Assembly: GCA_938074335.1 (NCBI GenBank)
Contig: CALJEL010000023.1
Location: forward strand, 1,554 to 65,553
DNA length: 64,000 bases
Source: an uncultured bacterium
GTDB lineage: Bacteria; Nitrospirota; Thermodesulfovibrionia; Thermodesulfovibrionales; CALJEL01
Direction of reading: 5' to 3'
Shown here: positions 32,115-50,204 of the stretch, one piece after another
How positions within the stretch are numbered: the stretch's first letter is position 1
How the letters are laid out: every line of letters starts with the position of its first letter
Made by a program: the position numbers and the translations under genes
Notes under the pieces: generated by a model
Databases searched by the model: none
Told to the model about the DNA's origin: nothing
The model's input: the letters and a program-made list of their open reading frames with translations, nothing else

Positions 32115-33722
32115 ATGCAACTATTTATACTTTTATCCTTTCTCTTTTCAGGCCTGAGCGCCCTTGTCTATGAGGTGGTCTGGACAAGGGCATTAAGCCT
32201 TGTCCTTGGCTCTACTGTCTATAGCCTCTCAACCATGCTTGCCACATTCATGGCAGGCCTTGCAACTGGCTCATTCATTGGTGGAAGGCTTGCTGACAGG
32301 GCTGGCTCTTATGATAAACTGTTATTCTATTATGGTATCTCTGAGGTATTAATAGGGCTTTCAGGGATAGTGAGTGTCCCTGTCATATATAGCCTGCCAC
32401 CCCTTTATTTTAAGCTCTTTCATGCATTAAATAATCAGCCTGGTCTCTTTTTCTTAAGTCAGTTCTTTTTGGCATCACTGGTGATGATTATCCCTACCTT
32501 TCTCATGGGTCTTACCTTTCCCTTTGTATCAAGGGCATTGACAGAAAGGATGGAAAGGCTTGGCAGGTCTGTTGGTGCTGCCTATTCCTTTAATACCATT
32601 GGTGCAATCCTTGGCTCTGTCCTTGCAGGATTTGTTTTTATTCCTTCCCTTGGCTTGAAGGCAACTGCCCTTATCGCAGGCCTCCTGAACCTTGCCATTG
32701 GTATTACATTTATCGTTATATCAAAGGGAAAAAGGGTGCTTCTACCTGTCTGCATCTCTTTGCTCTTTATCCTTTATCCCTTTTTGAAGGTAAAGCCCTC
32801 AGACTATTTTGCCACATTCTACATTGCCAAGAGGTTTCAGAGTCTTGAGGAACTGAGGAGGGTCGAGGCCTCCTACAGGGTTGTCTTTGAGAAGGAGCAC
32901 GAGCAGGGATTTGTCAGGGCATATCTTGATGAAAGGGGTTTTCTTACACTGCAGCATGGTGGAAAGATGGAAGGGACAAGTGTACCAGATGTTCCTAATG
33001 CCCTTTTGCTTACTGCCCTTCCTGTAAAGGCACTCGGAAGAAGACCTGAAGATATACTTGTTATAGGCCTTGGTGCTGGTATTACATCCTGGGTAGCAGG
33101 AGCTCAATCAGACCATGTAGATATAGTGGAAATAAACCCTGCTGTTGTTGAGGTTATAAGGAGATTCGGTATCCCTGGGACACTTGAAAAAAAGGGCCTT
33201 TATATTACTGATGCAAGGCATTATCTGCTTTATAATGAAAGGACTTATGATATTATTACATCCGAGCCCTCTGTGCCATCAGAGGCAATGGCTGCCAATC
33301 TCTTTACAAAGGAATTTTTTGAGCTTGCCTCAAGGAGGCTCTCTCCAGAAGGCATAATGACCCAGTGGGTGCCTGGCTGGATATTGAAAAGGGATGAGGT
33401 CAGGTCATGCATAAAGACCTTCAGGGTGGTCTTTCCCTATGTATATGTCTATAAGGTCAAGGCTTCCCGGGACTATATAATGCTTGGTTCAAGGATGCCC
33501 TTAGATTCAATACCTGGCACAGGTGTATTTATACCACCAGTTCTTCCACCTCAATTTGAAGAGATGAAAAAGATGGGTGATATAGGACCTTTCTTTGAGA
33601 TTGAGCTTGTAAGGGATGCAGAATCTGTAAGGGAGATCCTTGAGATGCCCCATATTCCTGTTATCACAGATGACAGGCCCCTCATTGAATTCTGGACAAC
33701 CCATAATTTCCTTGGGTATTAG
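32115..33722 (+). CDS. Membrane-fused spermidine-synthase-like (SpeE-fold) protein
   Basis: The N-terminal polytopic region has the typical FLFSGLSALVYEVVWTRALSLVLGST..FMAGLATGS. The C-terminal Rossmann/aminopropyltransferase-like region has ILVIGLGAGIT, VDIVEINPAVVEV and YDIITSEPSVP. Confidence 0.75.
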   Translation: MQLFILLSFLFSGLSALVYEVVWTRALSLVLGSTVYSLSTMLATFMAGLATGSFIGGRLADRAGSYDKLLFYYGISEVLIGLSGIVSVPVIYSLPPLYFKLFHALNNQPGLFFLSQFFLASLVMIIPTFLMGLTFPFVSRALTERMERLGRSVGAAYSFNTIGAILGSVLAGFVFIPSLGLKATALIAGLLNLAIGITFIVISKGKRVLLPVCISLLFILYPFLKVKPSDYFATFYIAKRFQSLEELRRVEASYRVVFEKEHEQGFVRAYLDERGFLTLQHGGKMEGTSVPDVPNALLLTALPVKALGRRPEDILVIGLGAGITSWVAGAQSDHVDIVEINPAVVEVIRRFGIPGTLEKKGLYITDARHYLLYNERTYDIITSEPSVPSEAMAANLFTKEFFELASRRLSPEGIMTQWVPGWILKRDEVRSCIKTFRVVFPYVYVYKVKASRDYIMLGSRMPLDSIPGTGVFIPPVLPPQFEEMKKMGDIGPFFEIELVRDAESVREILEMPHIPVITDDRPLIEFWTTHNFLGY

Positions 33723-33743: not shown

Positions 33744-34667
33744 ATGAGGCATATATTTATCCTTATATCAGTCCTCTGTCTCTTAATCTTAACCATAAAC
33801 AGGAATAATCTCTGGCAGGATGACCTGAAGATGTGGGAGGATGTGATAAAGAAGTCACCAGGCAAGGTCAGGCCCTATATTAATCTTGCAGGTGCCTATC
33901 TCATGAAAAACAGGCTTGATGATGCCCTCTCAGTTCTATTTAAATCCACAGAGGTCTTCAGGGATGAGATAATGGAAGGTAATATCCACTATCTTATGGC
34001 TGCTGTTGAGATATTTCTTAATTTTGCTGCAGTCTATGGTATTAAGGGTGATATGGACAGGGCAATGGAATTCCTTCAGAAGGCTTATGAGACAAATCCT
34101 CAATCTCCAAAGGTGAATTATGCCCTTGCCTATGGTTTTATGGAAAAGGGTGACCTCAGGAAGGCAGAGGAATTCCTTAAAAATGCACTCTCCTTAGCAG
34201 AGGAGCCAAAGGCTTATTTTCTTTATGGAGAACTCTGTGAAAGACAGGGAAGGCTTGAGGAGGCTATAAGATATTTCAAAAGGGCAACAGAGCTTGAGCC
34301 TGAAAATAGCTCTTACCTTACAAGGCTTGGTTATCTTTTAAAGATCACAGGTAAGCCTGATGAGGCAGAAAGGGCATGGCTCAGGGCAATAAGGCTTACA
34401 GATAAAGAACCAGAGCCCTATGTTAACCTTGGTTCTCTCATGTATGAAAGAGGCTTCTTAAAAAGTGCCTATCAATATTATAAAAAGGCACTTGAGATAG
34501 ACCCAAACAATTATGAGGCACTTGTGGGTGCTGCCAATGTTATTGATGATCTTGGAAATTTTGCCCTTGCAAGGGAAATGTATGAAAAGGCAATAAAGGT
34601 TGCACCTGAAAGAAAAGAGGCCTACATTGAATATGAAAGGAGCCTTAAAAGACAGGGTAAGAGATAA
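33744..34667 (+). CDS. Membrane-anchored TPR protein (TMTC-type TPR module without catalytic domain)
   Basis: One N-terminal TM helix is followed by NRNNLWQDDLKMWEDVIKKSPGKVRPYINLAGAY and multiple TPRs. Confidence 0.75.
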   Translation: MRHIFILISVLCLLILTINRNNLWQDDLKMWEDVIKKSPGKVRPYINLAGAYLMKNRLDDALSVLFKSTEVFRDEIMEGNIHYLMAAVEIFLNFAAVYGIKGDMDRAMEFLQKAYETNPQSPKVNYALAYGFMEKGDLRKAEEFLKNALSLAEEPKAYFLYGELCERQGRLEEAIRYFKRATELEPENSSYLTRLGYLLKITGKPDEAERAWLRAIRLTDKEPEPYVNLGSLMYERGFLKSAYQYYKKALEIDPNNYEALVGAANVIDDLGNFALAREMYEKAIKVAPERKEAYIEYERSLKRQGKR

Positions 34668-35274
34668 GATAAGGGCAGCCCCTCTTGTGTTGATAATTAT
34701 TTTACTGGCTTATCTGGCATGGCAGAGGAATCATGTTTGGATGGATGACCTGAGCCTGTGGCGCGATGTGGTTAAAGGCTCACCTTACAGTCCAAGGGCA
34801 TGGTTTAATCTTTCTTTAGCCTGTGAAGGCTCTGGTGATATGGAGTGTGCCATGGATGCTATAAAAAGGTCAATAGAGCTTTATCCTGAACCAGCTGCCT
34901 TTATGAGGCTTGGTTTTTTAATGGAATATAGGGATAATTTAAAGGAGGCAGAGTTGCTTTATAATGAGGCAATAAACAGGGCTGAGCAGGATTCTATAAC
35001 AGATGAGATGAAGAGGTTTGTGAAGAGGCAATCTTATTATGGACTTGGGAGTCTGTATTTTAAAAGGGATAGCCTCAGGGAGGCTGAGTATTATTACAGA
35101 ATGACTGTTGAGATAGACCCTGAGTTCAGCTATGCCTGGAATGATCTTGGTTATGTCCTGATGAAACTCCGCAGGTGTGAAGAGGCACGAAATGCCCTGC
35201 TTAAGGCACTTGAGCTCTCACCAGAGGACAGGCTTGCAAGGGAAAATCTTGAACTTCTCAAGGAGTGTAAATGA
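34633..35274 (+). CDS. Membrane-anchored TPR protein (TMTC-type TPR module)
   Basis: I prefer the ATG at 34633 to the TTG at 34600. One TM helix is followed by QRNHVWMDDLSLWRDVVKGSP and TPRs. Confidence 0.65.
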   Translation: MKGALKDRVRDKIRAAPLVLIIILLAYLAWQRNHVWMDDLSLWRDVVKGSPYSPRAWFNLSLACEGSGDMECAMDAIKRSIELYPEPAAFMRLGFLMEYRDNLKEAELLYNEAINRAEQDSITDEMKRFVKRQSYYGLGSLYFKRDSLREAEYYYRMTVEIDPEFSYAWNDLGYVLMKLRRCEEARNALLKALELSPEDRLARENLELLKECK

Positions 35275-37232
35275 AGAGCTGGCAGGCAATAGTCCTTATT
35301 TTTATCACTGTATTCATTGCCTATTCAAATAGTTTTATGGTTCCCTTTCAGTGGGATGATTACAGCTACATTGTAAATAATATAAGGGTTAAGGATTCAG
35401 GAGAACTTTTTAGGAACTGGAATGGCTCAAGGTTCATGGGATTTTTCAGCTTCTGGCTTAATTTTATCACTGCAGGTCTCAGACCTGCTCCATACCACCT
35501 TGTAAATCTTACAATACATATTCTGAATTCCTTTCTTGTCTTCTTTTTAATAAGGCTTCTTCTCAGGCTCCATTTCAAGGATACCTACAGGGAATATGAG
35601 GACTGGATAGCCCTCTCAGCAGCATTGCTTTTTGGACTTCATCCTGTAAACACCATGGCAGTAACATACATAAGCCAGAGGTTTACAATACTCTCAACAC
35701 TCTTCTATCTCCTTTCTGTTTTCCTATATCTTAAGGCAAGGCTTCAATCCCGAAACACTCCTTTATATCTCCTGTCCATCCTTTCAGCCATACTTGCTAT
35801 GAAGACAAAGGAGATTGCCTTTACCCTTCCTTTTATAATATTCCTCCTTGAATTTCTCCACTTTAGGTCAGAAAGGCACTGGAGATATCTTATCCCCCTC
35901 TTTCTGACCCTTTTTATCATTCCCTTAAGCAGGATAGATGCGCTCTGGACGATAAAGGGGCAGACCCTTCTTCAAAAGACTTTAGAAACATCAGATATCC
36001 CGAGGCATATCTATCTATTTACAGAGTTCAGGGTTTTGTTAACCTATGTAAGACTCCTGTTTTTTCCTGTTAATCTTAACATTGATTATGACTATCCACT
36101 CTCAAGGAGCCTCTTTGAGACAGATACCTTTTTTGCAATGATTGTCCATATTACATTGATTGTTTCTGCCATTATTCTTATCAAGAGGTCAGTTCATGGA
36201 AGGCTTGTTGGTACAGGGATTCTCTGGTATTACATTACACTTTCAGTGGAATCAAGCATAATACCCATCACAGATGTTATATTTGAACACAGGCTCTATC
36301 TTCCCTTTACAGGTTTTATACTCGTTCTTGCAGGTGCAGTCCTGTGGTTCGTACCTCTGAAAAGATATGGTAAGGCACTTATAATCCTTATCTCTATTAT
36401 TGTAATTGTCCTTGGCACAGCTACATTTTTAAGGAATTCTGTCTGGTTATCCCAGAGAAGTATCTGGGAAGATGCTGTAGAAAAATCTCCAGGCAAGGTC
36501 AGGACAAGGCTAAATTATGCCCTTACACTTCCTCCTGAAGAGGCTATAAAAGAACTTGAGTGGGTCTTATCAAAAGACCCCTGGAATCTTTCTGCACTTA
36601 ACAAACTTGCAAGGATATTTATGGAGATGGGCCGTATCTCTGAGGCAGAGGAGATATTAAAAAAGTCAGGGCAAATAGTCTCAGAAAAAGAGCTCTTTTC
36701 CTATAGGGCAGACATCTGCCTTGAGAAGAAGGACTACATCTGTGCTATTGATAACTTAAAGAGGCTTATTGAGCTTGAGCCAGGCAGTTCAAGGCATTAT
36801 TTCAGGCTTGGCCTTGCCTGTGAATACATGGCAAGGTTTGATGAGGCAGAGGAGGCTTACAGAAAGGCAATTGCCCTTGACCCATCCAATGCCGATGCCA
36901 TTAATAATCTTGGTAATCTTATGGCTGAAAAGGGTAATCTCAAGGAATCCCTCAAGCTTCTTAAAAAGGCAAGGGCCCTTATGCCAGAAAGTCCAAGCAT
37001 ACTTCTGAATCTTGGCATAACCTATGCACAGCTTGGAGATTATAATGAAGCCCTCTGGCATATTGACAGGGCATTAAAGCTCAAACCAGACATGGCCGAG
37101 GCATGGTTTAATAAAGGACTTATCCTCTTACAGGCAGGGATGAAGGATGAGGGATGCATTGCCATAATGAAATCACTTGAGATATCACCAGGCTTTGAAA
37201 AGGCAAAGGAGGTCTTTAAGAACTGTAAATGA
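35271..37232 (+). CDS. TMTC-like GT-C glycosyltransferase fused to TPR domain (full-length form)
   Basis: The N-terminal motif is PFQWDDYSYIVNN. The polytopic region ends at VIFEHRLYLP, followed by a TM helix, then LRNSVWLSQRSIWEDAVEKSPGKVR and about 7 TPRs. The start overlaps the upstream stop as ATGA. Confidence 0.7.
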   Translation: MKSWQAIVLIFITVFIAYSNSFMVPFQWDDYSYIVNNIRVKDSGELFRNWNGSRFMGFFSFWLNFITAGLRPAPYHLVNLTIHILNSFLVFFLIRLLLRLHFKDTYREYEDWIALSAALLFGLHPVNTMAVTYISQRFTILSTLFYLLSVFLYLKARLQSRNTPLYLLSILSAILAMKTKEIAFTLPFIIFLLEFLHFRSERHWRYLIPLFLTLFIIPLSRIDALWTIKGQTLLQKTLETSDIPRHIYLFTEFRVLLTYVRLLFFPVNLNIDYDYPLSRSLFETDTFFAMIVHITLIVSAIILIKRSVHGRLVGTGILWYYITLSVESSIIPITDVIFEHRLYLPFTGFILVLAGAVLWFVPLKRYGKALIILISIIVIVLGTATFLRNSVWLSQRSIWEDAVEKSPGKVRTRLNYALTLPPEEAIKELEWVLSKDPWNLSALNKLARIFMEMGRISEAEEILKKSGQIVSEKELFSYRADICLEKKDYICAIDNLKRLIELEPGSSRHYFRLGLACEYMARFDEAEEAYRKAIALDPSNADAINNLGNLMAEKGNLKESLKLLKKARALMPESPSILLNLGITYAQLGDYNEALWHIDRALKLKPDMAEAWFNKGLILLQAGMKDEGCIAIMKSLEISPGFEKAKEVFKNCK

Positions 37233-38527
37233 GGCTGAAGAGGATATGGAGATTTCTGAGTTCAAGGGGCTTTGCCCTGTGGCTTTTATTGATTGTTATA
37301 TTAATCCTGATACTTTCAGCATTTCTTCCAAATGAATTCACCCTTTCAGAGGAAGAACTGCTAAGGCTTCAGACCGAAAGGCCCTTTTTATGGAGATTAT
37401 CCCAACACCTGAGCACACCTGCCATAGTAACAGGTCCGGTGTTCGTGGCAGTGTCATTTTTCCTTGCACTCTCCACACTCCTCTGCACCTATAAAAGATT
37501 GAGAAGCAGGCAGAGGGATTTCTCAAAGACAAGGGCTTTTCACTTCAATATAGTAGATAATGGTGGCTCAAGGGATAAGATATTAAAGGTCCTTGATTCA
37601 AGAGGCTGGAGCAGGGGGTTTGAGAGGTCCTCAGAAGATATCACATTAATAAAGGCTGACAGAGGAAGATATGGATTCTGGGGTTCTATAATATTTCACA
37701 TCAGCTTGATTGCTCTGTTTATTACAGCCATAATAAGTTCTGTTACCCGTTTTAATGGTGAGATACTGGTGCCAGAAAATACTTTGATATCTGCCTCAGA
37801 TAGTCTTAATTATATTTTTCTTGCAGGGAGCAGACCACCTGCCATAGAACTTTCAGTTACAGATATAAGGTTATCAGCCTCAGGACCTGTGCCTACTCAA
37901 TTAATGGCAGATATTCATGTGAGCTCAGGCAGTTATGAGATAGCTGTTAATAAACCAGTGATGATATCAGGTTATCAGTTTGCACCATCAAGATACGGGA
38001 TATCACCGAGGTTTGTAATATCTAAGGAGGGCAAGGTCATATTTGATGCCTTTGTTAATCTCAGGAGTCTATTTATTGAAGATTATTTTGAGATAAAGGA
38101 GGAAGGCCTGAGATTTGTGGTGAGATTCTTCCCTGATTTTTATAAAGAAAGGCAGACCTTTGGTACAAGGGGACTTGAAGAGAAAAATCCTGTATTTTAT
38201 ATTAAACTCTTCAAAGAGGGTAGCCCTGCAGGCTCGGTATTTCTAAGACCCGGTGAGGATTATAGTGTTGGTAATTATACAATTAAGCTACCAGAGTATT
38301 CGCACTGGATAACCCTTGTTATAAGCAGGGACCCTGGCACCTTTTCTTTTATCATCAGCTTTGCCTTTGCAATACTCGGACTATTTATCAGATTCATGAG
38401 TAATGAGAGGGTTCTGACTGTATTACTTTATAGTGATGGAAGATTTGAATTAAGGGGCTGGAGCAGGTATTATCCTGCCTTTCTGGAAAAGGAGATGAAT
38501 GATATAAGGGATGAGATTAAAGGCTGA
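37229..38527 (+). CDS. ccsB: System II cytochrome c biogenesis protein CcsB/ResB
   Basis: The N-terminus WRFLSSRGFALWLLLIVILILIL is ResB-like. A histidine sits in a TM helix (FWGSIIFHISLIALF). There is a large periplasmic segment and a C-terminal VISRDPG..TM. The start overlaps the upstream stop as ATGA. Confidence 0.75.
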   Translation: MRLKRIWRFLSSRGFALWLLLIVILILILSAFLPNEFTLSEEELLRLQTERPFLWRLSQHLSTPAIVTGPVFVAVSFFLALSTLLCTYKRLRSRQRDFSKTRAFHFNIVDNGGSRDKILKVLDSRGWSRGFERSSEDITLIKADRGRYGFWGSIIFHISLIALFITAIISSVTRFNGEILVPENTLISASDSLNYIFLAGSRPPAIELSVTDIRLSASGPVPTQLMADIHVSSGSYEIAVNKPVMISGYQFAPSRYGISPRFVISKEGKVIFDAFVNLRSLFIEDYFEIKEEGLRFVVRFFPDFYKERQTFGTRGLEEKNPVFYIKLFKEGSPAGSVFLRPGEDYSVGNYTIKLPEYSHWITLVISRDPGTFSFIISFAFAILGLFIRFMSNERVLTVLLYSDGRFELRGWSRYYPAFLEKEMNDIRDEIKG

Positions 38528-39182
38528 AGGAGCAGGCCGTATTTTTATATTTTTGATAATAAGCCTGTTTGTTCTGTTCAGTTATCAGAGGAACTGGGTC
38601 TGGCTTACCGAGATCTCTCTGTGGGAGGATGTGGCAAAAAAATCTCCACTGAAGGTAAGACCTCATTTTAATCTCGGGCTTGCCTATCTTAACAGGAATA
38701 GATTTGAACTGGCAGAAAAGAGCCTCAGGATGACGCTTTCTTTATATCCTGATTATCATAAGGCAAAGTATTATCTTGCAGAGGCCCTCTATAATCTGGG
38801 CTCCTATGAGGAGGCATTGAAATATCTGAAGGAGGTTGAATTTCTTTATATAAATGTCCTTCCCCATTTCCCTGAAAAATGGGAAGGTGTATCAATGGCA
38901 TTTAGCGAGGCAGATCTTTACAATAATATTGCCTCATGCTATTATGGTGTCAATAATTTAAGGTCAGCAGAGGAGTATTATAGAAAGGCACTCCTGAAAG
39001 ATAGATTCCATATATATGCCATAAAGGGACTTATTACAGTGCTTGCTGATGAGGGAAGGATAGTGGAAGCAATCAGGCTCCTTGAAGATACTATCAGGGA
39101 TATGCCACCTTCTTTAAAGAGGGATGAGTTAGTGGAGATACTCTGGACGCTCAGGGATAGTCCTGAGCCCAGGAGGAGGTAA
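38511..39182 (+). CDS. Membrane-anchored TPR protein (TMTC-type TPR module) inserted between ccsB and ccsA
   Basis: One TM helix is followed by QRNWVWLTEISLWEDVAKKSPLKVRPHFNLGLAY and TPRs. It overlaps ccsB by 17 nt and ends 1 nt before ccsA. Confidence 0.7.
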   Translation: MRLKAEGAGRIFIFLIISLFVLFSYQRNWVWLTEISLWEDVAKKSPLKVRPHFNLGLAYLNRNRFELAEKSLRMTLSLYPDYHKAKYYLAEALYNLGSYEEALKYLKEVEFLYINVLPHFPEKWEGVSMAFSEADLYNNIASCYYGVNNLRSAEEYYRKALLKDRFHIYAIKGLITVLADEGRIVEAIRLLEDTIRDMPPSLKRDELVEILWTLRDSPEPRRR

Positions 39183-39183
39183 G

Positions 39184-39993
39184 ATGGGAAAAGTTGAGGG
39201 TATCTTCGTCTGGCTTGCCATAGGTCTTTACAGCCTATCCTTTATAACAGGTCTATTTTCCTTTGTTTTTAAGAGACAGATGGGAACGGGATTGGGCTTC
39301 TTAAGGATGGCTGTGGCTGCTCATGGGATTTCAATTGTTATGAGATGGTATGTAACAGGCCATCTACCTGTAATGGGAGTATATGAGAATTCCTTGATGG
39401 GTTCATGGTTTATTGGTATTACCTTTATATTCCTGCATCTATTCTTCAGGCAGATTGCTGGTTTTTATCTCGTGGTCTCTCCTGTGATACTTTTGATCCT
39501 TGGCAATGGTATCCAGAGCGGTGCTGAGCTTACACCCCTTGAACCTCCTTACAGGTCTAACTGGTTATATGTGCATGTGCTTTTTGCCTGGCTTGCCTTT
39601 GGAAGTTATTTTGTGGCAGCCTTTATTGGTCTGATAACACTCTTAAGAGACTTTATTGTGAAGAGATTCTCTTTCAATGTCCCTGAGGAGAAATTTCTTG
39701 ATGAGTTTTCCTTAAGGCTTATACTGTTTGGTTTTTTTTCAGAAAGTATAATGATAGGCTCTGGTGCCATATGGGCTCATGGATTGTGGGGAAGATACTG
39801 GGGGTGGGATCCTGTTGAGACATGGTCACTGATATCATGGCTTACCTATGGATTGAACCTTCACCTCAGGCTCACTTATGGATGGAGGGGCAAAAGGGCT
39901 GCCTGGCTTGCTATTGTTTCCCTTATCACAGTTATAGGTCTATTTTTTGGAATAGGTTATATCTCAGGCCTTCATACAAGGATGCTTGGCTGA
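39184..39993 (+). CDS. ccsA: System II cytochrome c synthase subunit CcsA
   Basis: It is a polytopic protein with the Trp-rich WWD-type motif WGRYWGWDPVETWSLISW (39787-39840), flanked by conserved His residues (IWAHG, LNLHLR). Confidence 0.85.
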   Translation: MGKVEGIFVWLAIGLYSLSFITGLFSFVFKRQMGTGLGFLRMAVAAHGISIVMRWYVTGHLPVMGVYENSLMGSWFIGITFIFLHLFFRQIAGFYLVVSPVILLILGNGIQSGAELTPLEPPYRSNWLYVHVLFAWLAFGSYFVAAFIGLITLLRDFIVKRFSFNVPEEKFLDEFSLRLILFGFFSESIMIGSGAIWAHGLWGRYWGWDPVETWSLISWLTYGLNLHLRLTYGWRGKRAAWLAIVSLITVIGLFFGIGYISGLHTRMLG

Positions 39994-40704
39994 CTAATCT
40001 TTAAATCTGTATTTTATGATGCTCCACAATATCCTGATGCCATCAAGGATATGAGGTTTTTTGCCTTCCTTCCGGTTCCTTGCCCTGTACCTTACAGGTA
40101 CTTCATTAATCCTTATTCCCCTCTTCAGCACCTTTGCAGTTACCTCTGGACAGAATTCAAAGCCCTTTGATTTGATATCTATATCCTGTAAGACCTCCTT
40201 TCTGAAGACCTTGAAGGCAGTCCCTTCATCCGTAATATTTGTTTTATAAAGTAGATTTACAAGGCCTGTGAATATTTTATTGGCAACCCAGTTTTCAGGT
40301 CTCATCCTTTCAGGCCATCTTTTGTGAAGAAACCTGCTACCATAAACAACCTTTACTTCAGGATCTTTGAAAGGTGAAAGAAGTTTCCGGTATTCCGAGG
40401 CAGGATATTCAAGGTCTCCATCCTGGATAAGAACTATATCACCTTTGGCAACCCTCAGGCCTGATTTAATCGCAGAGGCCTTTCCAAGGTTATTTTTATG
40501 TGTAACGATTTTTAAGGGATATTTTTCTGCATAATCCTTAAGTAATTCTTGAGTCCTGTCAGTGGAGCCATCATCAATTATTATGATCTCTTTTTCAAAA
40601 GGCGAGGTGTCTGCTCTTAAAATCTCCTCAAGGAGTTCATGAATAAGATGCCCTTCATTATACACAGGAACCAGTACAGATACAATCATCTTTAATTGTA
40701 TCAT
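39994..40704 (-). CDS. Family 2 glycosyltransferase (polyprenyl-phosphate sugar synthase-like)
   Basis: Signatures are VSVLVPVYNEGHLI, IIIIDDGSTDRT and QDGDLEYP. Confidence 0.8.
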   Translation of the reverse strand: MIQLKMIVSVLVPVYNEGHLIHELLEEILRADTSPFEKEIIIIDDGSTDRTQELLKDYAEKYPLKIVTHKNNLGKASAIKSGLRVAKGDIVLIQDGDLEYPASEYRKLLSPFKDPEVKVVYGSRFLHKRWPERMRPENWVANKIFTGLVNLLYKTNITDEGTAFKVFRKEVLQDIDIKSKGFEFCPEVTAKVLKRGIRINEVPVRYRARNRKEGKKPHILDGIRILWSIIKYRFKD

Positions 40705-40815
40705 AAGAACAGTTTTTAGAGATTACCAGCGGAAGTCGTCATTGCAGTCTACCGCCCTGATAAGACTTTGAGGCAGACTTCAAGTTTTTTATCTGAAAGG
40801 GGTTTCTCAAACATG

Positions 40816-40845
40816 TTGATTTTTCTATTTTTTCTATGTCATATT
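40816..40845 (+). promoter_or_regulatory. Sigma70-type promoter TTGATT-N18-(TG)tCATATT ending 5 nt before the ATG at 40851 (leaderless-type)
   Basis: The -35 element TTGATT is at 40816-40821 and TGTCATATT is at 40837-40845, followed by aattt and ATG. There is no Shine-Dalgarno sequence. Confidence 0.4.
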
Positions 40846-40850
40846 AATTT

Positions 40851-42002
40851 ATGCTTAGAACCCGCTTTGATCTCCTCGCAATAGGGCTTATAATCCTTGC
40901 AGTGGCAGTGGCCTATTCAAATACCTATACAGCCTCATTCCATTTTGACGACCAGCATACAATAGTGGAAAATCCCCGTATAAAACACCTTAAAAATATC
41001 CCTTCTTTTTTCTGGAATAATGAAGGGCCAGTTGGCTCAAGGCCTTTGCTTCTTGTGACAGTTGCTCTAAATTATGCAATCGGAGGGCTCCATGTCACTG
41101 GTTATCACATATTCAACAACCTTCTTCATGCAATTAACGGAATACTTTTCTATTTCTTTATGTTAATGGTTCTGAATCTTCCACGATTCAGGGACAGATA
41201 TGCCCAGCTTTCACGGGAGATTGCACTCCTCGGGTCATTGCTCTTTGTAGTTCATCCTGTGCAGACAGAGGCAGTCACATATATAATAAGCAGGTCAATG
41301 CCCATGGCAACATTTTTTTATCTCCTTGGCTTTATTCTCTATACAAGGGCTTTTGAGACAGGAAAGCAGTCTCTCTATATCTGGTTATTCGTCGTAAGTT
41401 TTCTTGGTATGGCATCAAGGGAGGATTATATTACATTTCCTGCTATGCTCTTCATATACGATTTCATGCTCCTCAGTTCTTTTAAAGATGCCTTAAGAAG
41501 GTGGAAGATATACCTTCTGCTTGGAATCACTGTAGCCTACAGGCTCTGGCTAAGCCTTACATATAAGGGGACTGAGGAGGCAGCAGGGTTTGGTGTAAAG
41601 CTTCTCACACCATATCAATATCTACTTACACAGTTTAATGTGATATGGACATATGTGAGGCTACTCTTCCTTCCAATTAATCAGAATCTTGATTATGATT
41701 ATCCTATTGCTAGATCCATATTTGAGTTTCCCACCATCCTTTCCTTTACAGGACATCTTCTGGTAATCGCTCTTGCAATATGGATCTATAAAAGAAACAG
41801 GCTTGTAACCTTTCTGATTTTATGGTGGTATATTACACTCTCACCTTCCTCAAGTTTTATACCCATTATTGATGTTATCTTTGAACACAGGGTTTATCTT
41901 CCCTCTATCGGATTTTTCTTTTTATTCATGATTGCTTACGAATATCTCTGGGAAAGGATAAGGCAGAAGATTCCTAAAAAGGCGATTCAAGAAAGTGGAT
42001 GA
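40851..42002 (+). CDS. TMTC-like GT-C glycosyltransferase, catalytic membrane domain only (no TPR)
   Basis: Motifs are SFHFDDQHTIVENPRI, HPVQTEAVTYI and PINQNLDYDYP. The protein ends shortly after VIFEHRVYLP, at the point where 35271..37232 continues into its TPR domain. Confidence 0.7.
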   Translation: MLRTRFDLLAIGLIILAVAVAYSNTYTASFHFDDQHTIVENPRIKHLKNIPSFFWNNEGPVGSRPLLLVTVALNYAIGGLHVTGYHIFNNLLHAINGILFYFFMLMVLNLPRFRDRYAQLSREIALLGSLLFVVHPVQTEAVTYIISRSMPMATFFYLLGFILYTRAFETGKQSLYIWLFVVSFLGMASREDYITFPAMLFIYDFMLLSSFKDALRRWKIYLLLGITVAYRLWLSLTYKGTEEAAGFGVKLLTPYQYLLTQFNVIWTYVRLLFLPINQNLDYDYPIARSIFEFPTILSFTGHLLVIALAIWIYKRNRLVTFLILWWYITLSPSSSFIPIIDVIFEHRVYLPSIGFFFLFMIAYEYLWERIRQKIPKKAIQESG

Positions 42003-42691
42003 GAGCCCTTATAATAATCCCTGCATATAATGAAGAGGCAAATATCCCGAAGGTTGCAGAGGATCTTAAAGAATCTATCCATGATGCAGTTGTTATAAAT
42101 GATGGCTCCACTGACAAGACCCATCAGATAGCAAGAGATCTCGGGTTCAAGGTTCTTAATCATCCCTATAATATTGGTGTAGGTGGTGCTGTTCAGACAG
42201 GTCTGAAGTATGCCCTTTTAAGGGATTATGATATTGCCATTCAGTTTGATGGAGATGGCCAGCACAGGGCAGATCAGATAGAGAATATAATAAGACCTGT
42301 GTTCAATGATGAGGCTGACCTTGTTATTGGCTCAAGGATTCTTGGCGGGGGATATAGATTTCCTCTTTTAAGAAGGATAGGGGGTAGATGGTTCTCTCTG
42401 CTGCTTTATCTTTCAGCGGGCATAAAGATTACAGACCCCACATCAGGTTTCAGATGTTATGGCAGAAGGGCAATGGAATTCTTCTCAAGCTGTTATCCAG
42501 AGGACTATCCAGAGGTGGAATCCATTATATATGCCTCAAAGGCAGGCTTGAGGATAAAGGAGGTGCCTTCACTTATGAGACAGAGGACAGGTGGAAGGTC
42601 ATCCATTGGAGTATTTCAATCAATTTATTACATGCTCAAGGTAAGCATAGGTGTGATGCTGACTTCTTTAAGAAGCATAAGGAGGTGGTAA
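41999..42691 (+). CDS. Family 2 glycosyltransferase, GtrB/ArnC/DPM1-like polyprenyl-phosphate glycosyltransferase
   Basis: Signatures are ALIIIPAYNEEANI, VINDGSTDKT, FDGDGQH and TDPTSGFR. The start overlaps the upstream stop. Confidence 0.8.
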   Translation: MRALIIIPAYNEEANIPKVAEDLKESIHDAVVINDGSTDKTHQIARDLGFKVLNHPYNIGVGGAVQTGLKYALLRDYDIAIQFDGDGQHRADQIENIIRPVFNDEADLVIGSRILGGGYRFPLLRRIGGRWFSLLLYLSAGIKITDPTSGFRCYGRRAMEFFSSCYPEDYPEVESIIYASKAGLRIKEVPSLMRQRTGGRSSIGVFQSIYYMLKVSIGVMLTSLRSIRRW

Positions 42692-42692: not shown

Positions 42693-43031
42693 ATGGATAT
42701 AGTTCAGATTATCTCTTTTTTGATCGGGGTGGTTCTGTTTCTTTCTGTTGTCTTTTTAATAATAACAGGAAGGCTCAAGGAGAGGTATTCCCTGCTCTGG
42801 CTTGCTTCATCTCTTTTTATCTGCATCCTTTCCATTTCAAGAAGGCTCCTTGAATATATCTCCTACAAGCTTGGTATTTATTATCCACCCTCGTTGCTCT
42901 TCCTTGCAGGAGTGCTTTTTTTGCTTGCTATAAATATATCCTTTTCAGTAACCATATCAAGACTTTCTTCAAAGGTTGATACACTTGCCCAGGAGATAGC
43001 CCTGCTAAAAGAAAATAAGGGTAGTCCCTGA
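42693..43031 (+). CDS. Small membrane protein, DUF2304-like
   Basis: The 112-aa protein has three hydrophobic helices. The motifs ERYSLLWL, YYPPSLLFL and AQEIALLK match my recollection of DUF2304, which commonly follows GtrB-like GT2 genes. Confidence 0.7.
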   Translation: MDIVQIISFLIGVVLFLSVVFLIITGRLKERYSLLWLASSLFICILSISRRLLEYISYKLGIYYPPSLLFLAGVLFLLAINISFSVTISRLSSKVDTLAQEIALLKENKGSP

Positions 43032-45893: not shown

Positions 45894-45895
45894 CA

Positions 45896-47026
45896 ATGGC
45901 TGTTGTACTTGTAACCGAAGAGGCAATTCCACCGGTTTATAGATTTTCTCTTACGGAAAAGCTTGCCATTGAACTCGCTGATAGGGGAGTAAAGGTCCAT
46001 CTTGTATGCAGAAAGGGTGAAGGAGAATTTCAGCATTATGGAGTTACCTGTCATCCTGTTCATGTAAAAGACTGGAGTCTTTTTAATCTAAAAAAAAGGG
46101 CAGAGGCTAACCTGAGTCTTGTCTTTAAGATATGGGAGGTCATGAGAAAAGATGACATAAAACTTGTGTATGGATGGTGGCCTGTTTTGTTTTTTTCAAG
46201 GATAGCAGGGAGCCCAGTGGCTGCAGATATGCCAGAATTTATAGATGTGATGTACAGGAGTTTTAATAAACCCCTTCATTTTCTCCTCTCACCCTTGCTC
46301 CGGTTTTTTCAAAGGACAGTAGCAACCATGAGCAGGGTTGTCATTACAGAGTCTGATATGGCAAGGGCTGTATGGGCAAGCAGGGGTATAGATTATAAAA
46401 AGACCTGTTCTATACCTTATGGAGTGGATGTGAATCATTTTATCTCTGTTGAAAAAGACAGGGATTTCAGAAAGAGATTTGAAATCTCTGAGGAAGAACT
46501 GCTCATTATGTATCACGGAGACATAGGCATAGATGATGGTGTTGATTTATTAATAGAGGCAACAGAGGGGCTTGATGCAAGGGTTGTAATAATAGGTGAG
46601 GGCGATCCGGGTTATATGAGACACCTCAGAAAGATAGCTCACAGCAGGGTAATATTTACAGGCTGGATTCCCTATAAGCAGATCCCTGGCATATTAAAAA
46701 ATGCTGACCTGTATGTGGCACCATTCAGGAGTTCCCTTTATACAAATACAACCTATCCTCTGAAGATAATGGAGGCAATGGCAGCAGCCCTGCCTGTGGT
46801 GGTATCCCATCTCCAAGCCTTATCCTTATATCTGAGGGATGGTAAGGATTCAGTCTTTTTCAAACCATCTGATATAGATGATATGAGGACAAAGATTATA
46901 TATTTGCTGAAGGATGAAGGGCAGAGGAGGCAACTTGGTCAGGAGGCCTTGAGAACTGCTCAAAAGTATTTTGACTACAGGTTAAGGATAAAAAGAGAGT
47001 CAGACCTGCTTTTAGGACTGTTATGA
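45896..47026 (+). CDS. Family 4 (GT-B, Glycos_transf_1-type) glycosyltransferase
   Basis: The C-terminal half shows LLIMYHGDIG, VIIGEGD and YPLKIMEAMAAALPVVVS, typical of GT4 retaining glycosyltransferases. Confidence 0.75.
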   Translation: MAVVLVTEEAIPPVYRFSLTEKLAIELADRGVKVHLVCRKGEGEFQHYGVTCHPVHVKDWSLFNLKKRAEANLSLVFKIWEVMRKDDIKLVYGWWPVLFFSRIAGSPVAADMPEFIDVMYRSFNKPLHFLLSPLLRFFQRTVATMSRVVITESDMARAVWASRGIDYKKTCSIPYGVDVNHFISVEKDRDFRKRFEISEEELLIMYHGDIGIDDGVDLLIEATEGLDARVVIIGEGDPGYMRHLRKIAHSRVIFTGWIPYKQIPGILKNADLYVAPFRSSLYTNTTYPLKIMEAMAAALPVVVSHLQALSLYLRDGKDSVFFKPSDIDDMRTKIIYLLKDEGQRRQLGQEALRTAQKYFDYRLRIKRESDLLLGLL

Positions 47027-48429: not shown

Positions 48430-48433
48430 TAAG

Positions 48434-49399
48434 ATGTTGAAGGTCTCGGTCATCATACCTGTTTATAACAGGGCACATATAATAGGAGCTGTTATAGAGG
48501 CATTGCTTGAGCAGGAGCATAAGCCTCTTGAGATCATCATAGTGGATGACGGCTCTACGGATAATACCCGTGAGGTGGTTAAGTCATACCCTGTGAAATA
48601 TATCTATCAGGAAAACAGGGGCCCTGCCTCTGCCAGGAACAGGGGATTCAGGGAATCAAAGGGAGATATTGTTGCCTTTATTGATTCAGACTGTATCGCA
48701 AAAAAGGACTGGCTCAAGAATTTAATAAAGGGATTTGACTCGTCTGAGGTTGGTGCCGTTGCTGGCTCTTATGATATTGCAAATTCACAGAGCCTTCTTT
48801 CACGGCTCATACATGAGGAGATTAAATGGAGGCATTCAGGATTTAAAAGATTTATCCGTGCCTTTGGTTCTTATAATGTGGCAATAAGGAGAGAGGTCTT
48901 TGAGAAGGCAGGTGGATTTGACGAGTCCTACAGGACGGCAAGCGGTGAGGATAATGATCTTTCTTACAGGATACTGAAGGCCGGTTATAAGATAAGATTT
49001 GTACCCGATGCACTTGTTGCCCATTATCATACCGAAAATCTTTTTAAATACCTTAAAGAACAGTACAGGCATGCCTTCTGGAGGATGAAACTTTATAAAG
49101 ACCATCCTGACATGATAAGGGGAGATGACTATACAGGGTTGAAGGATGCGATTGAGATACCTGTCTCTGTTCTTTCACTTTGCGGTCTTCCGTTACTATT
49201 GACTCAATACAGTTTTTTTGAATTTCTTCTTTTGGGTTTCCTTGTCCTTCTTCTACTGCCCTTACCTGTAAGGATCAGCCTTCAGAAAAGGGATCCCAGA
49301 TACCTGATTATGGCTATGCTCTTTTTTTTCAGGGCCCTTGTAAGGGCTGCTGGGATGATGGAAGGAATAGTGAGATTCTGGCTTTTTAATAGAAGTTAA
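48434..49399 (+). CDS. Family 2 glycosyltransferase with C-terminal membrane segment
   Basis: Signatures are VSVIIPVYNRAHII, IIIVDDGSTDNT, IDSDC and SGEDNDLSYR. The C-terminus has hydrophobic helices. Confidence 0.8.
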   Translation: MLKVSVIIPVYNRAHIIGAVIEALLEQEHKPLEIIIVDDGSTDNTREVVKSYPVKYIYQENRGPASARNRGFRESKGDIVAFIDSDCIAKKDWLKNLIKGFDSSEVGAVAGSYDIANSQSLLSRLIHEEIKWRHSGFKRFIRAFGSYNVAIRREVFEKAGGFDESYRTASGEDNDLSYRILKAGYKIRFVPDALVAHYHTENLFKYLKEQYRHAFWRMKLYKDHPDMIRGDDYTGLKDAIEIPVSVLSLCGLPLLLTQYSFFEFLLLGFLVLLLLPLPVRISLQKRDPRYLIMAMLFFFRALVRAAGMMEGIVRFWLFNRS

Positions 49400-50184
49400 G
49401 GACTCTTTGTGATTTCTCCTTTCAGTCTTTTAATATTTCTTATTATCATCTCATTGTCAGGGTTTAATTGGTATGCCTTCTCAAAGGCCTTCAATGCTTC
49501 CTGCTTATTACCTGTTTCTGCATAGGCTGCACCGAGATTATTCCATGCCTCTGCTTTATCCGGTCTTTTCTCCGTTGCAATCCTGAATACCCTTATTGCC
49601 TCTTCTTTATTGCCCTGCCTCCAGAGGATGTTTCCCATATTGAGCCATGCCTCTATAAGGTCAGGGTCATTTTCCAATGCCATCTTATAATAATTCATTG
49701 CCTCAACCTCTCTTCCAAGTTTCTCATAGGCAAAGCCGATCCCCAGCAGGGCCTTTGCCTGGACGGGATTGAGCAATAAAACATTTCTATATTTCTCTAT
49801 TGCCTCTGTAAACTGACTGTTATTTATAAGTTGAGATGCCTCTGAGAGGAGGCTCTTTTCATCCCCGGGTTTAAGTGCCTTTGCTGCCATGAGATAGTTC
49901 TCTGCCAGTTCCTTTTTACCTGTTTTCTGTAAAAGGAGTCCGTAAGAGAAAAGGATGGTTGGCTCTGATGGATTTATATCAACAGCCTTTTTAAGATAAA
50001 AAAGAGCCTCATCTATCATTTTTCTTTCAATGGCATGGGTTGCGAGATTCACATGAGGTCTCAATTTGTTCGGAGATTTTTGGACTGTATCTTTCCAGAG
50101 GGTATAACCGTCCTGCCAGATGCTGTTTCTATGGAATGTAAGTACAGCGAGTAGTATTATGATAGGGATGAAAAAGTACCTCAT
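49396..50184 (-). CDS. Membrane-anchored TPR protein (TMTC-type TPR module)
   Basis: I prefer the start at Met22 of the track ORF (50184), which removes the overlap with 50205..50636. One TM helix is followed by HRNSIWQDGYTLWKDTVQKSPNKLRPHVNLATHA and TPRs. Confidence 0.65.
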   Translation of the reverse strand: MRYFFIPIIILLAVLTFHRNSIWQDGYTLWKDTVQKSPNKLRPHVNLATHAIERKMIDEALFYLKKAVDINPSEPTILFSYGLLLQKTGKKELAENYLMAAKALKPGDEKSLLSEASQLINNSQFTEAIEKYRNVLLLNPVQAKALLGIGFAYEKLGREVEAMNYYKMALENDPDLIEAWLNMGNILWRQGNKEEAIRVFRIATEKRPDKAEAWNNLGAAYAETGNKQEALKAFEKAYQLNPDNEMIIRNIKRLKGEITKSP

Positions 50185-50204
50185 CTTTTGATAGTATATC
50201 ATAT

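What the first reader, a model, noticed from the sequence alone, without database searches (positions are those of the whole stretch)
33744..42002. TMTC-like protein glycosyltransferase split into interchangeable parts: one fusion, one catalytic-only gene and four TPR-only genes
The protein from 35271..37232 is a complete TMTC/DUF1736-type enzyme. It has FQWDDYSYIVNN near the N-terminus, VIFEHRLYLP, a last TM helix, then LRNSVWLSQRSIWEDAVEKSPGKVR and TPRs.

The protein from 40851..42002 has the same membrane domain (SFHFDDQHTIVENPRI ... VIFEHRVYLP) but stops just before the TPR part.

Four separate genes (33744, 34633, 38511, and 49396..50184 on the minus strand) each encode exactly the missing part. 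That part is one TM helix followed by [RN]-N-x-[VIL]-W-x4-[LIM]-W-x-D-x3-K-[SG]-S-P-x-x-x-R and then TPRs.

The break point is the same in every case. This suggests a modular system in which one catalytic membrane subunit could pair with alternative TPR adaptors that select substrates.
Basis: partly seen in the sequence, partly recalled or inferred. Interest (0 to 1): 0.58.

Follow-up and report, generated by a model that had tools for sequence, protein, structure and literature searches.

The report
Split bacterial TMTC-type glycosyltransferase genes
This bacterium carries a membrane sugar-transferase of the same family as the human TMTC enzymes in three forms (complete, enzyme part only, and substrate-binding tail only); the split is old, intact and recurs in other phyla, but here most of the tail-only genes travel with the complete enzyme and a cytochrome c assembly machine, not with the enzyme-only gene.

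Summary
The window encodes one full TMTC-type GT-C enzyme (35271-37232, 11 TM helices plus TPR), one catalytic-only version ending after TM10 (40851-42002), and four intact genes for TM11 plus a conserved junction motif plus TPRs. No frameshifted remnants exist, and dN/dS is 0.1-0.2.

A profile of the membrane domain matches human TMTC1-4 over its whole length (98-122 bits). The fold is GT-C. Pfam DUF1736 is not matched.

The split is ancient and widespread. Catalytic-only proteins form one clade. They almost always sit in a cassette of GT2, DUF2304 (GacJ-like) and the GT-C gene. In about a third of such loci, 1-5 tail-only genes lie beside the cassette, against 1 of 40 fusion-only loci. The junction is equally conserved in tail-only and fused proteins.

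The modular-adaptor idea is therefore plausible, but it is only partly supported for this locus. Three of the four TPR-only genes belong to a translationally coupled six-gene block, TPR-TPR-fusion-ResB-TPR-CcsA. Relatives down to 52% identity conserve this block, one of them with no catalytic-only gene within about 8-10 kb of it. Only the gene at 49396-50202 lies in the catalytic-only gene's cluster. No interaction test could be run.

Verdict: a new variant of a known kind, with moderate interest.

The parts
33744..34667 (+). TPR-only gene A (307 aa): signal-anchor helix, junction motif (aa 20-43, nt 33801-33872), then TPRs
   Evidence: ORF. TPR Pfam hits only. Junction HMM scores 104 bits at aa 1-59. 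Orthologues occupy the same position in L083, L085 and L087. dN/dS is 0.15 against L083.
34633..35274 (+). TPR-only gene B (213 aa): TM helix, junction motif (aa 32-55, nt 34726-34797), then TPRs. It overlaps A by 35 nt and C by 4 nt.
   Evidence: The public record has the same 213-aa product. dN/dS is 0.18 against L082.
35271..37232 (+). Full-length TMTC-type enzyme C (653 aa): 11-TM GT-C domain with FQWDD, HPxxT, KE..T, DYDYP and FEHRLYLP motifs; TM11 plus junction (aa 363-411, nt 36357-36503); then about 8 TPR-like helix pairs
   Evidence: AF2 model has pLDDT 87.2 and pTM 0.75, with 88-93 across TM11 and the junction. The family profile matches human TMTC1-4.
37229..38527 (+). ResB/CcsB-like cytochrome c biogenesis protein (432 aa). 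It overlaps C by 4 nt and D by 17 nt.
   Evidence: Pfam ResB, E = 1.3e-25. Conserved position in L082-L087.
38511..39182 (+). TPR-only gene D (223 aa), inserted between ResB and CcsA: TM helix, junction motif (aa 27-50, nt 38589-38660), then TPRs
   Evidence: Orthologues lie between ResB and CcsA in L082, L083, L085 and L087. dN/dS is 0.17 against L082.
39184..39993 (+). CcsA (ResC) haem-handling subunit of the System II cytochrome c synthase (269 aa, WGWDPVETW motif)
   Evidence: Pfam Cytochrom_C_asm, E = 3e-35. NCBIfam CcsB, 162 bits, below its 187.6-bit cut-off.
39994..40704 (-). GT2 polyprenyl-phosphate glycosyltransferase-like gene, divergent from the catalytic-only gene
   Evidence: Pfam Glycos_transf_2. 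Best solved relatives are Dol-P-Man synthase 5mlz (E = 1e-24), ArnC and GtrB-like sll0501.
40851..42002 (+). Catalytic-only TMTC-type GT-C protein E (383 aa, TM1-TM10). It ends in a basic cytoplasmic tail and has no TM11, junction or TPR.
   Evidence: AF2 model has pLDDT 85.6 and pTM 0.89. The top 20 PDB fold matches are all GT-C enzymes. Orthologues of 384-430 aa are abundant. It belongs to a pure catalytic-only clade.
41999..42691 (+). GT2, GacI/PpgS-like candidate polyprenyl-phosphate sugar synthase. It overlaps E by 4 nt.
   Evidence: Pfam GT2. Its only solved-structure match at E <= 1e-5 is Dol-P-Man synthase 5mlz. It is adjacent to the catalytic-only gene in about 30 related loci.
42693..43031 (+). 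DUF2304 small membrane protein (GacJ/Rv3632 family), the usual partner of the GT2
   Evidence: Pfam DUF2304, E = 1.2e-23. GacJ binds and stimulates GacI (preprint 10.1101/180810). The cassette is conserved.
49396..50202 (-). TPR-only gene F (268 aa in the public record; 262 aa from 50184): TM helix, junction motif (nt 50059-50130), then TPRs. It is convergent with the last gene of the catalytic-only gene's cluster.
   Evidence: Orthologues at 85% and 81% identity lie on the same contigs as orthologues of E.

Best explanation
The locus holds a bacterial TMTC-family (GT-C, PMT clan) periplasmic glycosyltransferase system in three architectural states.

1. The full enzyme (35271) has the 11-TM catalytic domain. 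Its last helix (TM11) leads through a strongly conserved junction (..RNxVWx5LWxDxxxKSPxxxR..) into periplasmic TPRs.
2. The catalytic-only protein (40851) is TM1-TM10. It is encoded beside a GT2 and a DUF2304 protein. By analogy with GacI/GacJ and PpgS/Rv3632, these two would make the polyprenyl-phosphate-sugar donor.
3. The four short genes each encode TM11, the junction and TPRs.

Shown: homology, fold, intactness, age of the split, and the synteny patterns.

Inferred: the TPR-only proteins are membrane-anchored adaptors. Through TM11 and the junction they would assemble with a TMTC-type core and present periplasmic acceptor proteins to it.

In this lineage, three adaptors (33744, 34633, 38511) work with the full-length enzyme and the ResB/CcsA cytochrome c synthase encoded in the same operon. 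Their most likely clients are therefore c-type, multi-haem cytochromes emerging from that machine. One example is the Ser/Thr-rich 2807-aa cytochrome just upstream. Only the gene at 49396-50202 is placed where a partner of the catalytic-only enzyme would be expected.
For: TMTC homology and fold:
- A profile of the bacterial membrane domain scores 98-122 bits against human TMTC1-4 and fly TMTC4 over the whole domain. The DD, RP, HPxxTE, KE..T, D[WY] and E(H)R..Y.PS.G motifs align in register (TMTC sequences taken from PMC7801869).
- TMTC TM11 ends in ..KTFHRNW, the same RN as the junction.
- The top 20 PDB fold hits are all GT-C enzymes: STT3, PglB, Pmt4, ArnT, ALG3.

The genes are intact:
- No membrane-domain remnants lie anywhere else in the window.
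- dN/dS is 0.10-0.18 for all the genes compared, in the comparison with the closest relative, L082.

The split is old and general:
- Nearly all of the 120 best homologues of the 40851 product are 382-466 aa; only three are TPR fusions of 546-647 aa.
- 38 of 42 catalytic-only domains form one pure clade.
- Of the 150 best junction hits, 84 are fusions and 35 are one-TM proteins that start with Met.

Trans-pairing signal:
- TPR-only genes lie next to the GT2-DUF2304-catalytic-only cassette in 11-13 of 37-39 loci, against 1 of 40 fusion-only loci (Fisher p = 3e-4 to 1e-3).
- The junction is as conserved in TPR-only proteins (2.78 bits per position, n = 32) as in fusions (2.79 bits, n = 50).
- In the window's paralogues the junction core is 52% identical, against 30% for the TPR part.

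Operon link to ResB/CcsA:
- The six genes overlap or abut.
- The block is conserved in L082, L083/84, L085/86 and L087.
- An unrelated Thermodesulfobacteriota locus (L023) places the split system next to two multi-haem cytochromes and ResB-CcsA. L047 has CcsA-fusion-fusion.

Donor side: both neighbouring GT2s are most similar to polyprenyl-phosphate sugar synthases. DUF2304 is the GacJ family.
Against: - No interaction, co-folding or co-evolution test could be run. Pairing rests on gene neighbourhood and motif conservation only.
- Two thirds of catalytic-only loci, including all the closest orthologues of the 40851 gene (L001-L014), have no TPR-only gene within the available flanks. The core may therefore work alone.
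- The AF2 model of TM1-TM10 alone is confident (pTM 0.89), which gives no hint that TM11 is needed.
- In the window, three adaptors sit beside a fusion whose own TM11 site is already filled in cis.
- The link to cytochromes is by synteny in one narrow lineage plus two other loci. L085 has the block without a giant cytochrome nearby.
- The loci counted are related MAGs, so the Fisher test overstates independence.
- The sugar and the acceptors are unknown.
Confidence: 0.45

Rival explanations
1. The TPR-only proteins do not work with any glycosyltransferase core. They would be membrane-anchored periplasmic TPR chaperones or scaffolds that descend from TMTC-type tails. In this operon they would serve the ResB/CcsA cytochrome c synthase by holding long apocytochromes, as CcmI and NrfG do in System I. 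The junction would be conserved because it caps the TPR solenoid and sits at the membrane interface. The catalytic-only enzyme would work alone as a Gac/Gtr-type GT-C.
For: - Gene D is inserted between ResB and CcsA and is translationally coupled to both. The block is conserved where no catalytic-only gene is nearby.
- A and F pass the Pfam cut-off for TPR_CcmH_CycH (58 and 63 bits against a cut-off of 42).
- Most catalytic-only loci lack TPR-only genes.
- The TM1-TM10 model is confident on its own.
- The junction resembles a half TPR followed by a normal TPR start (..KSPxKARPHxNLGxAY).
Against: - The CcmH_CycH hits lie under much stronger generic TPR hits, and B, C and D do not pass.
- The R, N and two W residues are not TPR features. 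They are as conserved in TPR-only proteins as in fusions.
- TPR-only genes are strongly enriched beside catalytic-only genes in other phyla.
- The ResB/CcsA block always contains the full enzyme as well.
- More distant ResB-CcsA pairs have no TPR gene.
Confidence: 0.3
2. One reading: the single 40851 catalytic subunit pairs interchangeably with all four TPR-only proteins of this window, each selecting different substrates.
For: - The break point is the same in all six proteins.
- Elsewhere, arrays of TPR-only genes follow one catalytic-only gene (L015, L019, L021, L022, L026).
- The TPR parts have diverged more than the junction.
Against: - A, B and D are in another operon, with a complete enzyme, and keep that position in relatives. 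One relative (L085) has no catalytic-only gene within about 8-10 kb of the block.
- The 40851 gene is not co-transcribed with any TPR-only gene here.
- Its nearest orthologues have none within 10 kb.
Confidence: 0.12
3. The short genes are decayed or mis-assembled pieces of once-complete fusion genes, produced by frameshifts, nonsense mutations or assembly errors.
For: Such cases do exist in related MAGs:
- L064 is a fusion with an in-frame TGA at the invariant Arg of EHR.
- L046 has a catalytic-only gene broken into three pieces.
- L016 has a masked N run at the boundary.

Against: - In the window each TPR-only gene abuts or overlaps an unrelated intact gene on its 5' side.
- The membrane-domain HMM finds nothing above 6 bits outside the two intact genes, even in 15-aa stop-to-stop pieces.
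- dN/dS is 0.15-0.18 for A, B and D in their least saturated comparisons. F was not measured.
- Orthologues keep the same lengths at 85%, 62%, 60% and 52% identity.
Confidence: 0.02

Closest known systems
Animal TMTC1-4 protein O-mannosyltransferases (GT-C, PMT clan)
   Same: Whole-domain sequence homology, 98-122 bits. The same order of motifs: DD in EL1, RP before TM2, LLFxVHPxxTE, KE..T, the D[WY] loop, and the E(H)R..Y.PS.G loop. Eleven TM helices followed by TPRs on the non-cytoplasmic side. TM11 ends in RN.
   Different: These proteins are bacterial and periplasmic. The Pfam DUF1736 model is not matched, although 20 of the 58 aligned sequences (homologues plus the two window proteins) match PMT_2. 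The family also exists here as two separate polypeptides, cut between TM10 and TM11. The sugar, the lipid carrier and the acceptors are unknown. No TMTC is known to be split (from my own knowledge, plus limited literature searches).
Three-component periplasmic glycosylation systems: GacI/GacJ/GacL of Streptococcus pyogenes, PpgS/Rv3632 of M. tuberculosis, and Gtr systems
   Same: A GT2 polyprenyl-phosphate sugar synthase, a DUF2304 small membrane partner and a GT-C transferase are encoded together.
   Different: The GT-C here is TMTC-type rather than GacL- or GtrC-type. In about a third of loci it comes with separate TM11-TPR genes, which suggests protein acceptors rather than glycan acceptors. 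No flippase was identified.
CcmI (CycH) and NrfG, TPR apocytochrome-binding subunits of System I cytochrome c maturation
   Same: Periplasmic TPR proteins encoded with cytochrome c synthase genes; CcmI is also membrane-anchored, which NrfG is not known to be. Two of the proteins here pass the Pfam TPR_CcmH_CycH cut-off.
   Different: This operon is System II (ResB/CcsA), for which I know of no TPR accessory; one literature search was run and its papers were not read. The anchor and junction are homologous to TMTC TM11, not to CcmI. A complete glycosyltransferase is part of the same operon.
Fused versus separate TPR partners in other sugar systems: FlmG and Maf-type flagellin glycosyltransferases; OGT and SPY; AlgK/AlgE versus PgaA/BcsC
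   Same: A TPR module selects or holds the client of a glycosyltransferase or glycan exporter, and it occurs either fused or as a separate gene (titles and abstracts of PMC7591256 and 10.1101/2023.12.03.569772). The TPR part of the fusion model best matches OGT and SPY TPRs.
   Different: In those systems the catalytic domains are soluble GT-B-type or Maf-type enzymes, or porins. Here the cut runs through a polytopic membrane enzyme and takes one TM helix with it.

Membership tests
TMTC family (GT-C, PMT clan) | GT-C fold of the polytopic membrane domain | tested here: met
   AF2 model of the 40851 product has pLDDT 85.6 and pTM 0.89. The top 20 Foldseek PDB hits are all GT-C enzymes: STT3 (E = 1.5e-3, prob 1.0, TMq 0.52), PglB, Pmt4, ArnT and ALG3.
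TMTC family (GT-C, PMT clan) | Sequence homology to TMTC1-4 across the N-terminal domain, with the conserved motifs (DD, SHKSYRP, HPxHTE, KE[TQ]xxT, DW, AERxxY) | tested here: met
   hmmsearch of the bacterial family profile against human TMTC1-4 and fly TMTC4 gives 98-122 bits. TMTC1-3 align as a single stretch from about profile position 7-15 to 370-378; TMTC4 aligns in two stretches (12-215 and 304-378). The motifs align in register. The window has FHFDD/FQWDD, GSRP, HPVQTE, REDYIT/KEIAFT, DYDYP and FEHR[VL]YLP.
TMTC family (GT-C, PMT clan) | Match to Pfam DUF1736 (PF08409), the TM7-TM8 loop model | tested here: not met
   No hit even at E <= 10 for either window protein. None of the 58 aligned sequences hits it at E <= 0.1, while 20 hit PMT_2 PF13231.
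TMTC family (GT-C, PMT clan) | Eleven TM helices followed by C-terminal TPRs on the lumenal or periplasmic side, in one polypeptide | tested here: inconclusive
   Met by the 35271 product. Not met by the 40851 product, which has TM1-10 only, nor by the four TPR-only proteins, which have TM11 plus TPR only. Topology is inferred from the TMTC alignment and charge distribution, not measured.
TMTC family (GT-C, PMT clan) | Transfer of mannose from a polyprenyl-phosphate-mannose donor to Ser/Thr of protein acceptors | not testable with these tools
   Supported only indirectly. Two polyprenyl-phosphate sugar synthase-like GT2 genes flank the 40851 gene.
Gac/Gtr-type three-component periplasmic glycosylation cassette | GT2 polyprenyl-phosphate sugar synthase, small membrane partner (DUF2304/GacJ) and GT-C transferase encoded together | tested here: met
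   Pfam GT2 and DUF2304 sit next to the 40851 gene. The same three genes are adjacent in about 30 related loci. GacJ belongs to DUF2304 and activates GacI.
System II cytochrome c biogenesis (ResB/CcsB plus CcsA/ResC) | ResB-family protein and a CcsA with the WWD motif, encoded together | tested here: met
   Pfam ResB (E = 1.3e-25) and Cytochrom_C_asm (E = 3e-35). WGWDPVETW is present in the 39184 product. NCBIfam CcsB scores 162 bits, below its 187.6-bit cut-off.
CcmI/NrfG-type TPR apocytochrome chaperone | TPR domain of the CcmH/CycH type that binds apocytochrome c | tested here: inconclusive
   PF23914 scores are A 58 and F 63 bits (cut-off 42), B 34 and C 35 bits, and no hit for D. All lie under stronger generic TPR hits. 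Binding is not testable here.

The most novel reading that the evidence does not exclude
In this Nitrospirota lineage, a System II cytochrome c synthase operon has recruited a complete TMTC-type glycosyltransferase and three trans-acting TM11-TPR adaptors. Haem attachment would then be physically coupled to TPR-guided chaperoning and O-glycosylation of very large multi-haem cytochromes. More generally, bacterial TMTC enzymes would be naturally modular, with one catalytic core (TM1-10) completed in the membrane by exchangeable TM11-TPR subunits that set substrate choice.
Probability: 0.2. Interest if true: 0.8.

Novelty: new variant of a known kind. Interest (0 to 1): 0.55.

Why it matters
TMTC enzymes are disease-linked protein O-mannosyltransferases in animals, and how their TPR domains choose substrates is not understood. 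A very large bacterial branch of the family has no experimentally characterised member that I know of. Its junction motif alone marks 14,039 cluster representatives.

If this branch really works as a catalytic core plus separately encoded TM11-TPR adaptors, nature has already done the domain-swap experiment. Cores and adaptors could be mixed in a bacterial host to read out how TPRs determine acceptor choice.

The conserved operon with ResB/CcsA would also be the first hint known to me of TPR accessory factors, and perhaps glycosylation, in System II cytochrome c maturation. That is relevant to how bacteria build giant multi-haem cytochromes for extracellular electron transfer.

Tried and rejected
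- Pfam and NCBIfam scans of the membrane domains gave nothing, even at E <= 10. Homology therefore had to be shown through a family profile against TMTC sequences taken from a paper's supplement.
- A profile search of PDB sequences gave no hit.
- The PDB fold search with the full fusion model was swamped by generic TPR proteins and added nothing about the junction.
- The structure tool returns no coordinates and accepts only single known sequences. Contacts between TM11/junction and the core, and co-folding of the 40851 product with the TPR-only proteins, could not be examined.
- The promoter and terminator scan was uninformative. Terminator-like sites numbered 17, against 17.3 expected.
The lineage is inferred as Nitrospirota/Thermodesulfovibrionales-like from the names of homologues.
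- The metagenome scan with ResB found only one further copy of the six-gene block.
- Decay or frameshift origin was considered and rejected for the window.
- L064 and L016 were first counted as split loci. L064 was then excluded because of an in-frame TGA; L016 (masked N run at the boundary) was flagged as ambiguous but is still counted in the reduced 11-of-37 figure.


Full report
**1. Observation**

For the last one, the public record uses the start at 50202, giving 268 aa.

A six-frame scan finds the junction motif exactly five times in the 64 kb, and only in the five named proteins. In the alignment of the five junctions, R, N, W, W, D, S, P, R and N are invariant.

The two membrane domains are 39% identical (E = 1e-63). 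Their alignment stops after EHRxYLP plus one helix.

In the fusion, two hydrophobic helices follow EHRLYLP, separated by the basic loop PLKRYGK, and the second runs into RNSVW. The 40851 product ends after the first of these helices with a basic tail. Each TPR-only protein begins with the equivalent of the second helix. The cut therefore lies in the cytoplasmic loop between the last two helices in all cases.

**2. What the proteins are**

Pfam and NCBIfam see only TPRs. They report nothing for either membrane domain, even at E <= 10, and a profile search of PDB sequences found nothing.

The fold is GT-C. An AlphaFold2 model of the 40851 product is confident (pLDDT 85.6, pTM 0.89). Its 20 best PDB fold matches are all GT-C glycosyltransferases: STT3/OST, PglB, Pmt4, ArnT and ALG3. 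Twenty of the 58 aligned sequences match Pfam PMT_2. None matches DUF1736.

To test the TMTC claim directly, I took the N-terminal domains of human TMTC1-4 and fly TMTC4 from the supplementary alignment of Eisenhaber et al. 2021 (PMC7801869). I then searched them with a profile of the bacterial family.
- Scores were 98-122 bits over essentially the whole domain.
- The DD, RP, HPxxTE, KE..T and D[WY] motifs and the E(H)R..Y.PS.G loop aligned in register.

That paper derives 11 TM helices for TMTCs. In its topology the DUF1736 region is a lumenal loop between TM7 and TM8, and the ER..Y arginine sits before TM10. Mapped onto the models here, the 40851 product is TM1-TM10 and the fusion is 11 TM helices plus TPRs. 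TMTC TM11 ends in ..KTFHRNW or ..KTAIRNG, which is the RN of the junction.

'TMTC-like' is therefore supported by homology, although one formal marker, the Pfam DUF1736 model, is not met.

**3. The short genes are not debris**

- Each TPR-only gene abuts or overlaps an unrelated intact gene on its 5' side.
- The membrane-domain HMM finds nothing above 6 bits outside the two intact genes, even in 15-aa stop-to-stop pieces.
- Against the relative at about 85% identity, dN/dS is 0.18 (B), 0.17 (D), 0.17 (fusion), 0.15 (ResB), 0.07 (CcsA) and 0.11 (catalytic-only).

**4. The split is old and general**

- Nearly all of the 120 best homologues of the 40851 product are 382-466 aa; only three are TPR fusions of 546-647 aa.
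- In a neighbour-joining tree of 102 membrane domains, 38 of 42 catalytic-only domains form one pure clade.
- The five-sequence junction profile finds 14,039 cluster representatives at E <= 1e-3. Of the best 150, 84 are fusions and 35 are one-TM proteins that start with Met.
- The junction is equally conserved in TPR-only proteins (2.78 bits per position, n = 32) and in fusions (2.79 bits, n = 50).
- Among the window's five paralogues, the junction core is 52% identical and the TPR part 30%.

**5. Neighbourhoods**

In 80 genome loci found with the membrane-domain profile, the catalytic-only gene sits almost always in a cassette of GT2, DUF2304 and the catalytic-only gene.

DUF2304 is the GacJ/Rv3632 family, which binds and stimulates the polyprenyl-phosphate HexNAc synthases GacI and PpgS (preprint 10.1101/180810). 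Both GT2s next to the 40851 gene are most similar to Dol-P-Man synthase, and the upstream one also to ArnC and GtrB-like enzymes. This is the familiar three-component layout for periplasmic glycosylation.

One to five TPR-only genes flank the cassette in 11-13 of 37-39 loci. Examples are L015, L019, L021, L022, L023 and L026, from Desulfobacterota-type and Nitrospirota MAGs. Among fusion-only loci the figure is 1 of 40 (Fisher p = 3e-4 to 1e-3). The loci are related MAGs, so the test is indicative only.

**6. This locus tells a different story for three of the four adaptors**

Genes A, B, the fusion, ResB, D and CcsA overlap or abut one another. The same six-gene block, in the same order, occurs in several relatives:
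- at 85% identity (L082, cut at its 5' end, so gene A is not covered);
- at 62% (L087);
- at 60% (L083/L084);
- at 52% (L085/L086).

In L085 the block sits among housekeeping genes, with no giant cytochrome and no catalytic-only cassette within about 8-10 kb. Each of A, B, C and D is a distinct, old orthologue lineage. More distant ResB-CcsA pairs have no TPR gene between them.

The 40851 gene starts a separate unit: 40851, GT2, DUF2304, three B12-radical-SAM genes, a GT1 and a GT2. Its closest orthologues (L001-L014) have no TPR-only gene within the available flanks.

Only gene F lies in that cluster, convergent at its end, and it is conserved there in the two closest relatives.

Two other loci link the family to cytochrome maturation. 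L023 has the cassette and its three flanking TPR-only genes, followed by two multi-haem cytochromes and ResB-CcsA. L047 has CcsA-fusion-fusion.

**7. Mechanism**

Shown: a TMTC-type GT-C family in fused and split forms; intact genes; an old split at one loop; a donor-synthesis cassette next to the core; and an operon link of a fusion and three adaptors to ResB/CcsA.

Inferred: TPR-only proteins anchor through TM11 and the junction to a TMTC-type core and present periplasmic clients. In this lineage the clients are most likely c-type cytochromes. The 2807-aa cytochrome upstream has 40 CxxCH and 10 Cx3-4CH motifs and is 22% Ser+Thr.

The fusion model is confident through TM11 and the junction (pLDDT 88-93). 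Without coordinates I could not see what the junction touches.

The main rival is that the TPR-only proteins are CcmI/NrfG-like chaperones for ResB/CcsA and that the catalytic-only enzyme works alone. I rate the adaptor model at 0.45 and this rival at 0.30. The strict 'one core, four adaptors' model gets 0.12, and decay or artefact 0.02.

**8. Novelty**

Bacterial TMTC homologues are mentioned in passing in the literature and are auto-annotated as 'protein O-mannosyl-transferase' or 'TPR protein'.

My searches found no description of three things (the paper library is incomplete, the search was not exhaustive, and the papers returned were not read):
- the split into TM1-10 and TM11-TPR genes;
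- the arrays of TPR-only genes;
- the ResB-TPR-CcsA operon.

I file this as a new variant of a known kind, of moderate interest. The decisive tests are multimer structure prediction, a whole-genome co-occurrence census and pull-downs.

Noticed in passing
window 23624-32047 (+): A giant 2807-aa predicted multi-haem cytochrome with a signal-peptide-like N-terminus. It has 40 CxxCH and 10 Cx3-4CH motifs, is 22% Ser+Thr and carries 48 N-x-S/T sequons. A 2809-aa counterpart lies upstream of the same TPR/ResB block in L083. It is a candidate client of the downstream maturation and glycosylation genes.
   Followed up: partly
window 43049-49399 (+): Three B12-binding radical SAM genes, a GT1 and a GT2 follow the catalytic-only cassette. 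They are conserved in L082 and L083. Homologous radical SAM genes recur near catalytic-only or fused TMTC-type genes in many unrelated loci: L015, L018, L022, L023, L027, L029, L047, L049, L055, L074 and L078. Their role is unexplained; they might modify the sugar or the lipid.
   Followed up: partly
window 14102-23615 and 50620-55102: The surroundings look like an extracellular electron-transfer cluster. They include three SurA-like PPIase genes (16010, 50620, 54224), an NHL beta-propeller (17047), three paired-CXXCH cytochromes (18079, 18868, 20008) and an 891-aa FG-GAP/BACON protein (20940).
   Followed up: no
window 32115-33722 (+): A fused MFS/spermidine-synthase-like protein (NCBIfam NF037959) lies directly upstream of TPR gene A. 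The same gene precedes the block in L087. In L083 a Y1 transposase occupies that position, and in L085 the gene is absent.
   Followed up: no
L031 1-2586: A catalytic domain that groups with fusions, not with the catalytic-only clade, is separated from a 512-aa TM11-TPR ORF by a single in-frame TAG. A restart follows three codons later, exactly in the TM10-TM11 loop. This could be a recent, independent fission at the same break point, or a sequencing error.
   Followed up: partly
L064 1187-2800, L046 9866-11146 and L016 around 10160-10290: These are broken copies in related MAGs. L064 is a fusion with an in-frame TGA replacing the invariant Arg of EHR. L046 has a catalytic-only gene in three pieces. 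L016 has a masked N run at the boundary between the core and TM11. They show what decay looks like in this family, in contrast to the window.
   Followed up: partly
L070 (six in tandem), L043, L047, L055, L076: Omnitrophota and some Nitrospirota carry tandem arrays of up to six full-length fusion paralogues instead of one core with several TPR-only genes. This may be an alternative route to the same diversity of TPR specificities.
   Followed up: no
window 39993/39994 and 50184-50205: Gene packing is unusually tight. The stop codon of CcsA (+) and the stop codon of the GT2 (-) are adjacent with no spacer. The start of TPR gene F (-) lies only 2-20 nt from the start of the divergent gene at 50205 (+), so F's promoter must lie inside that neighbour.
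   Followed up: no
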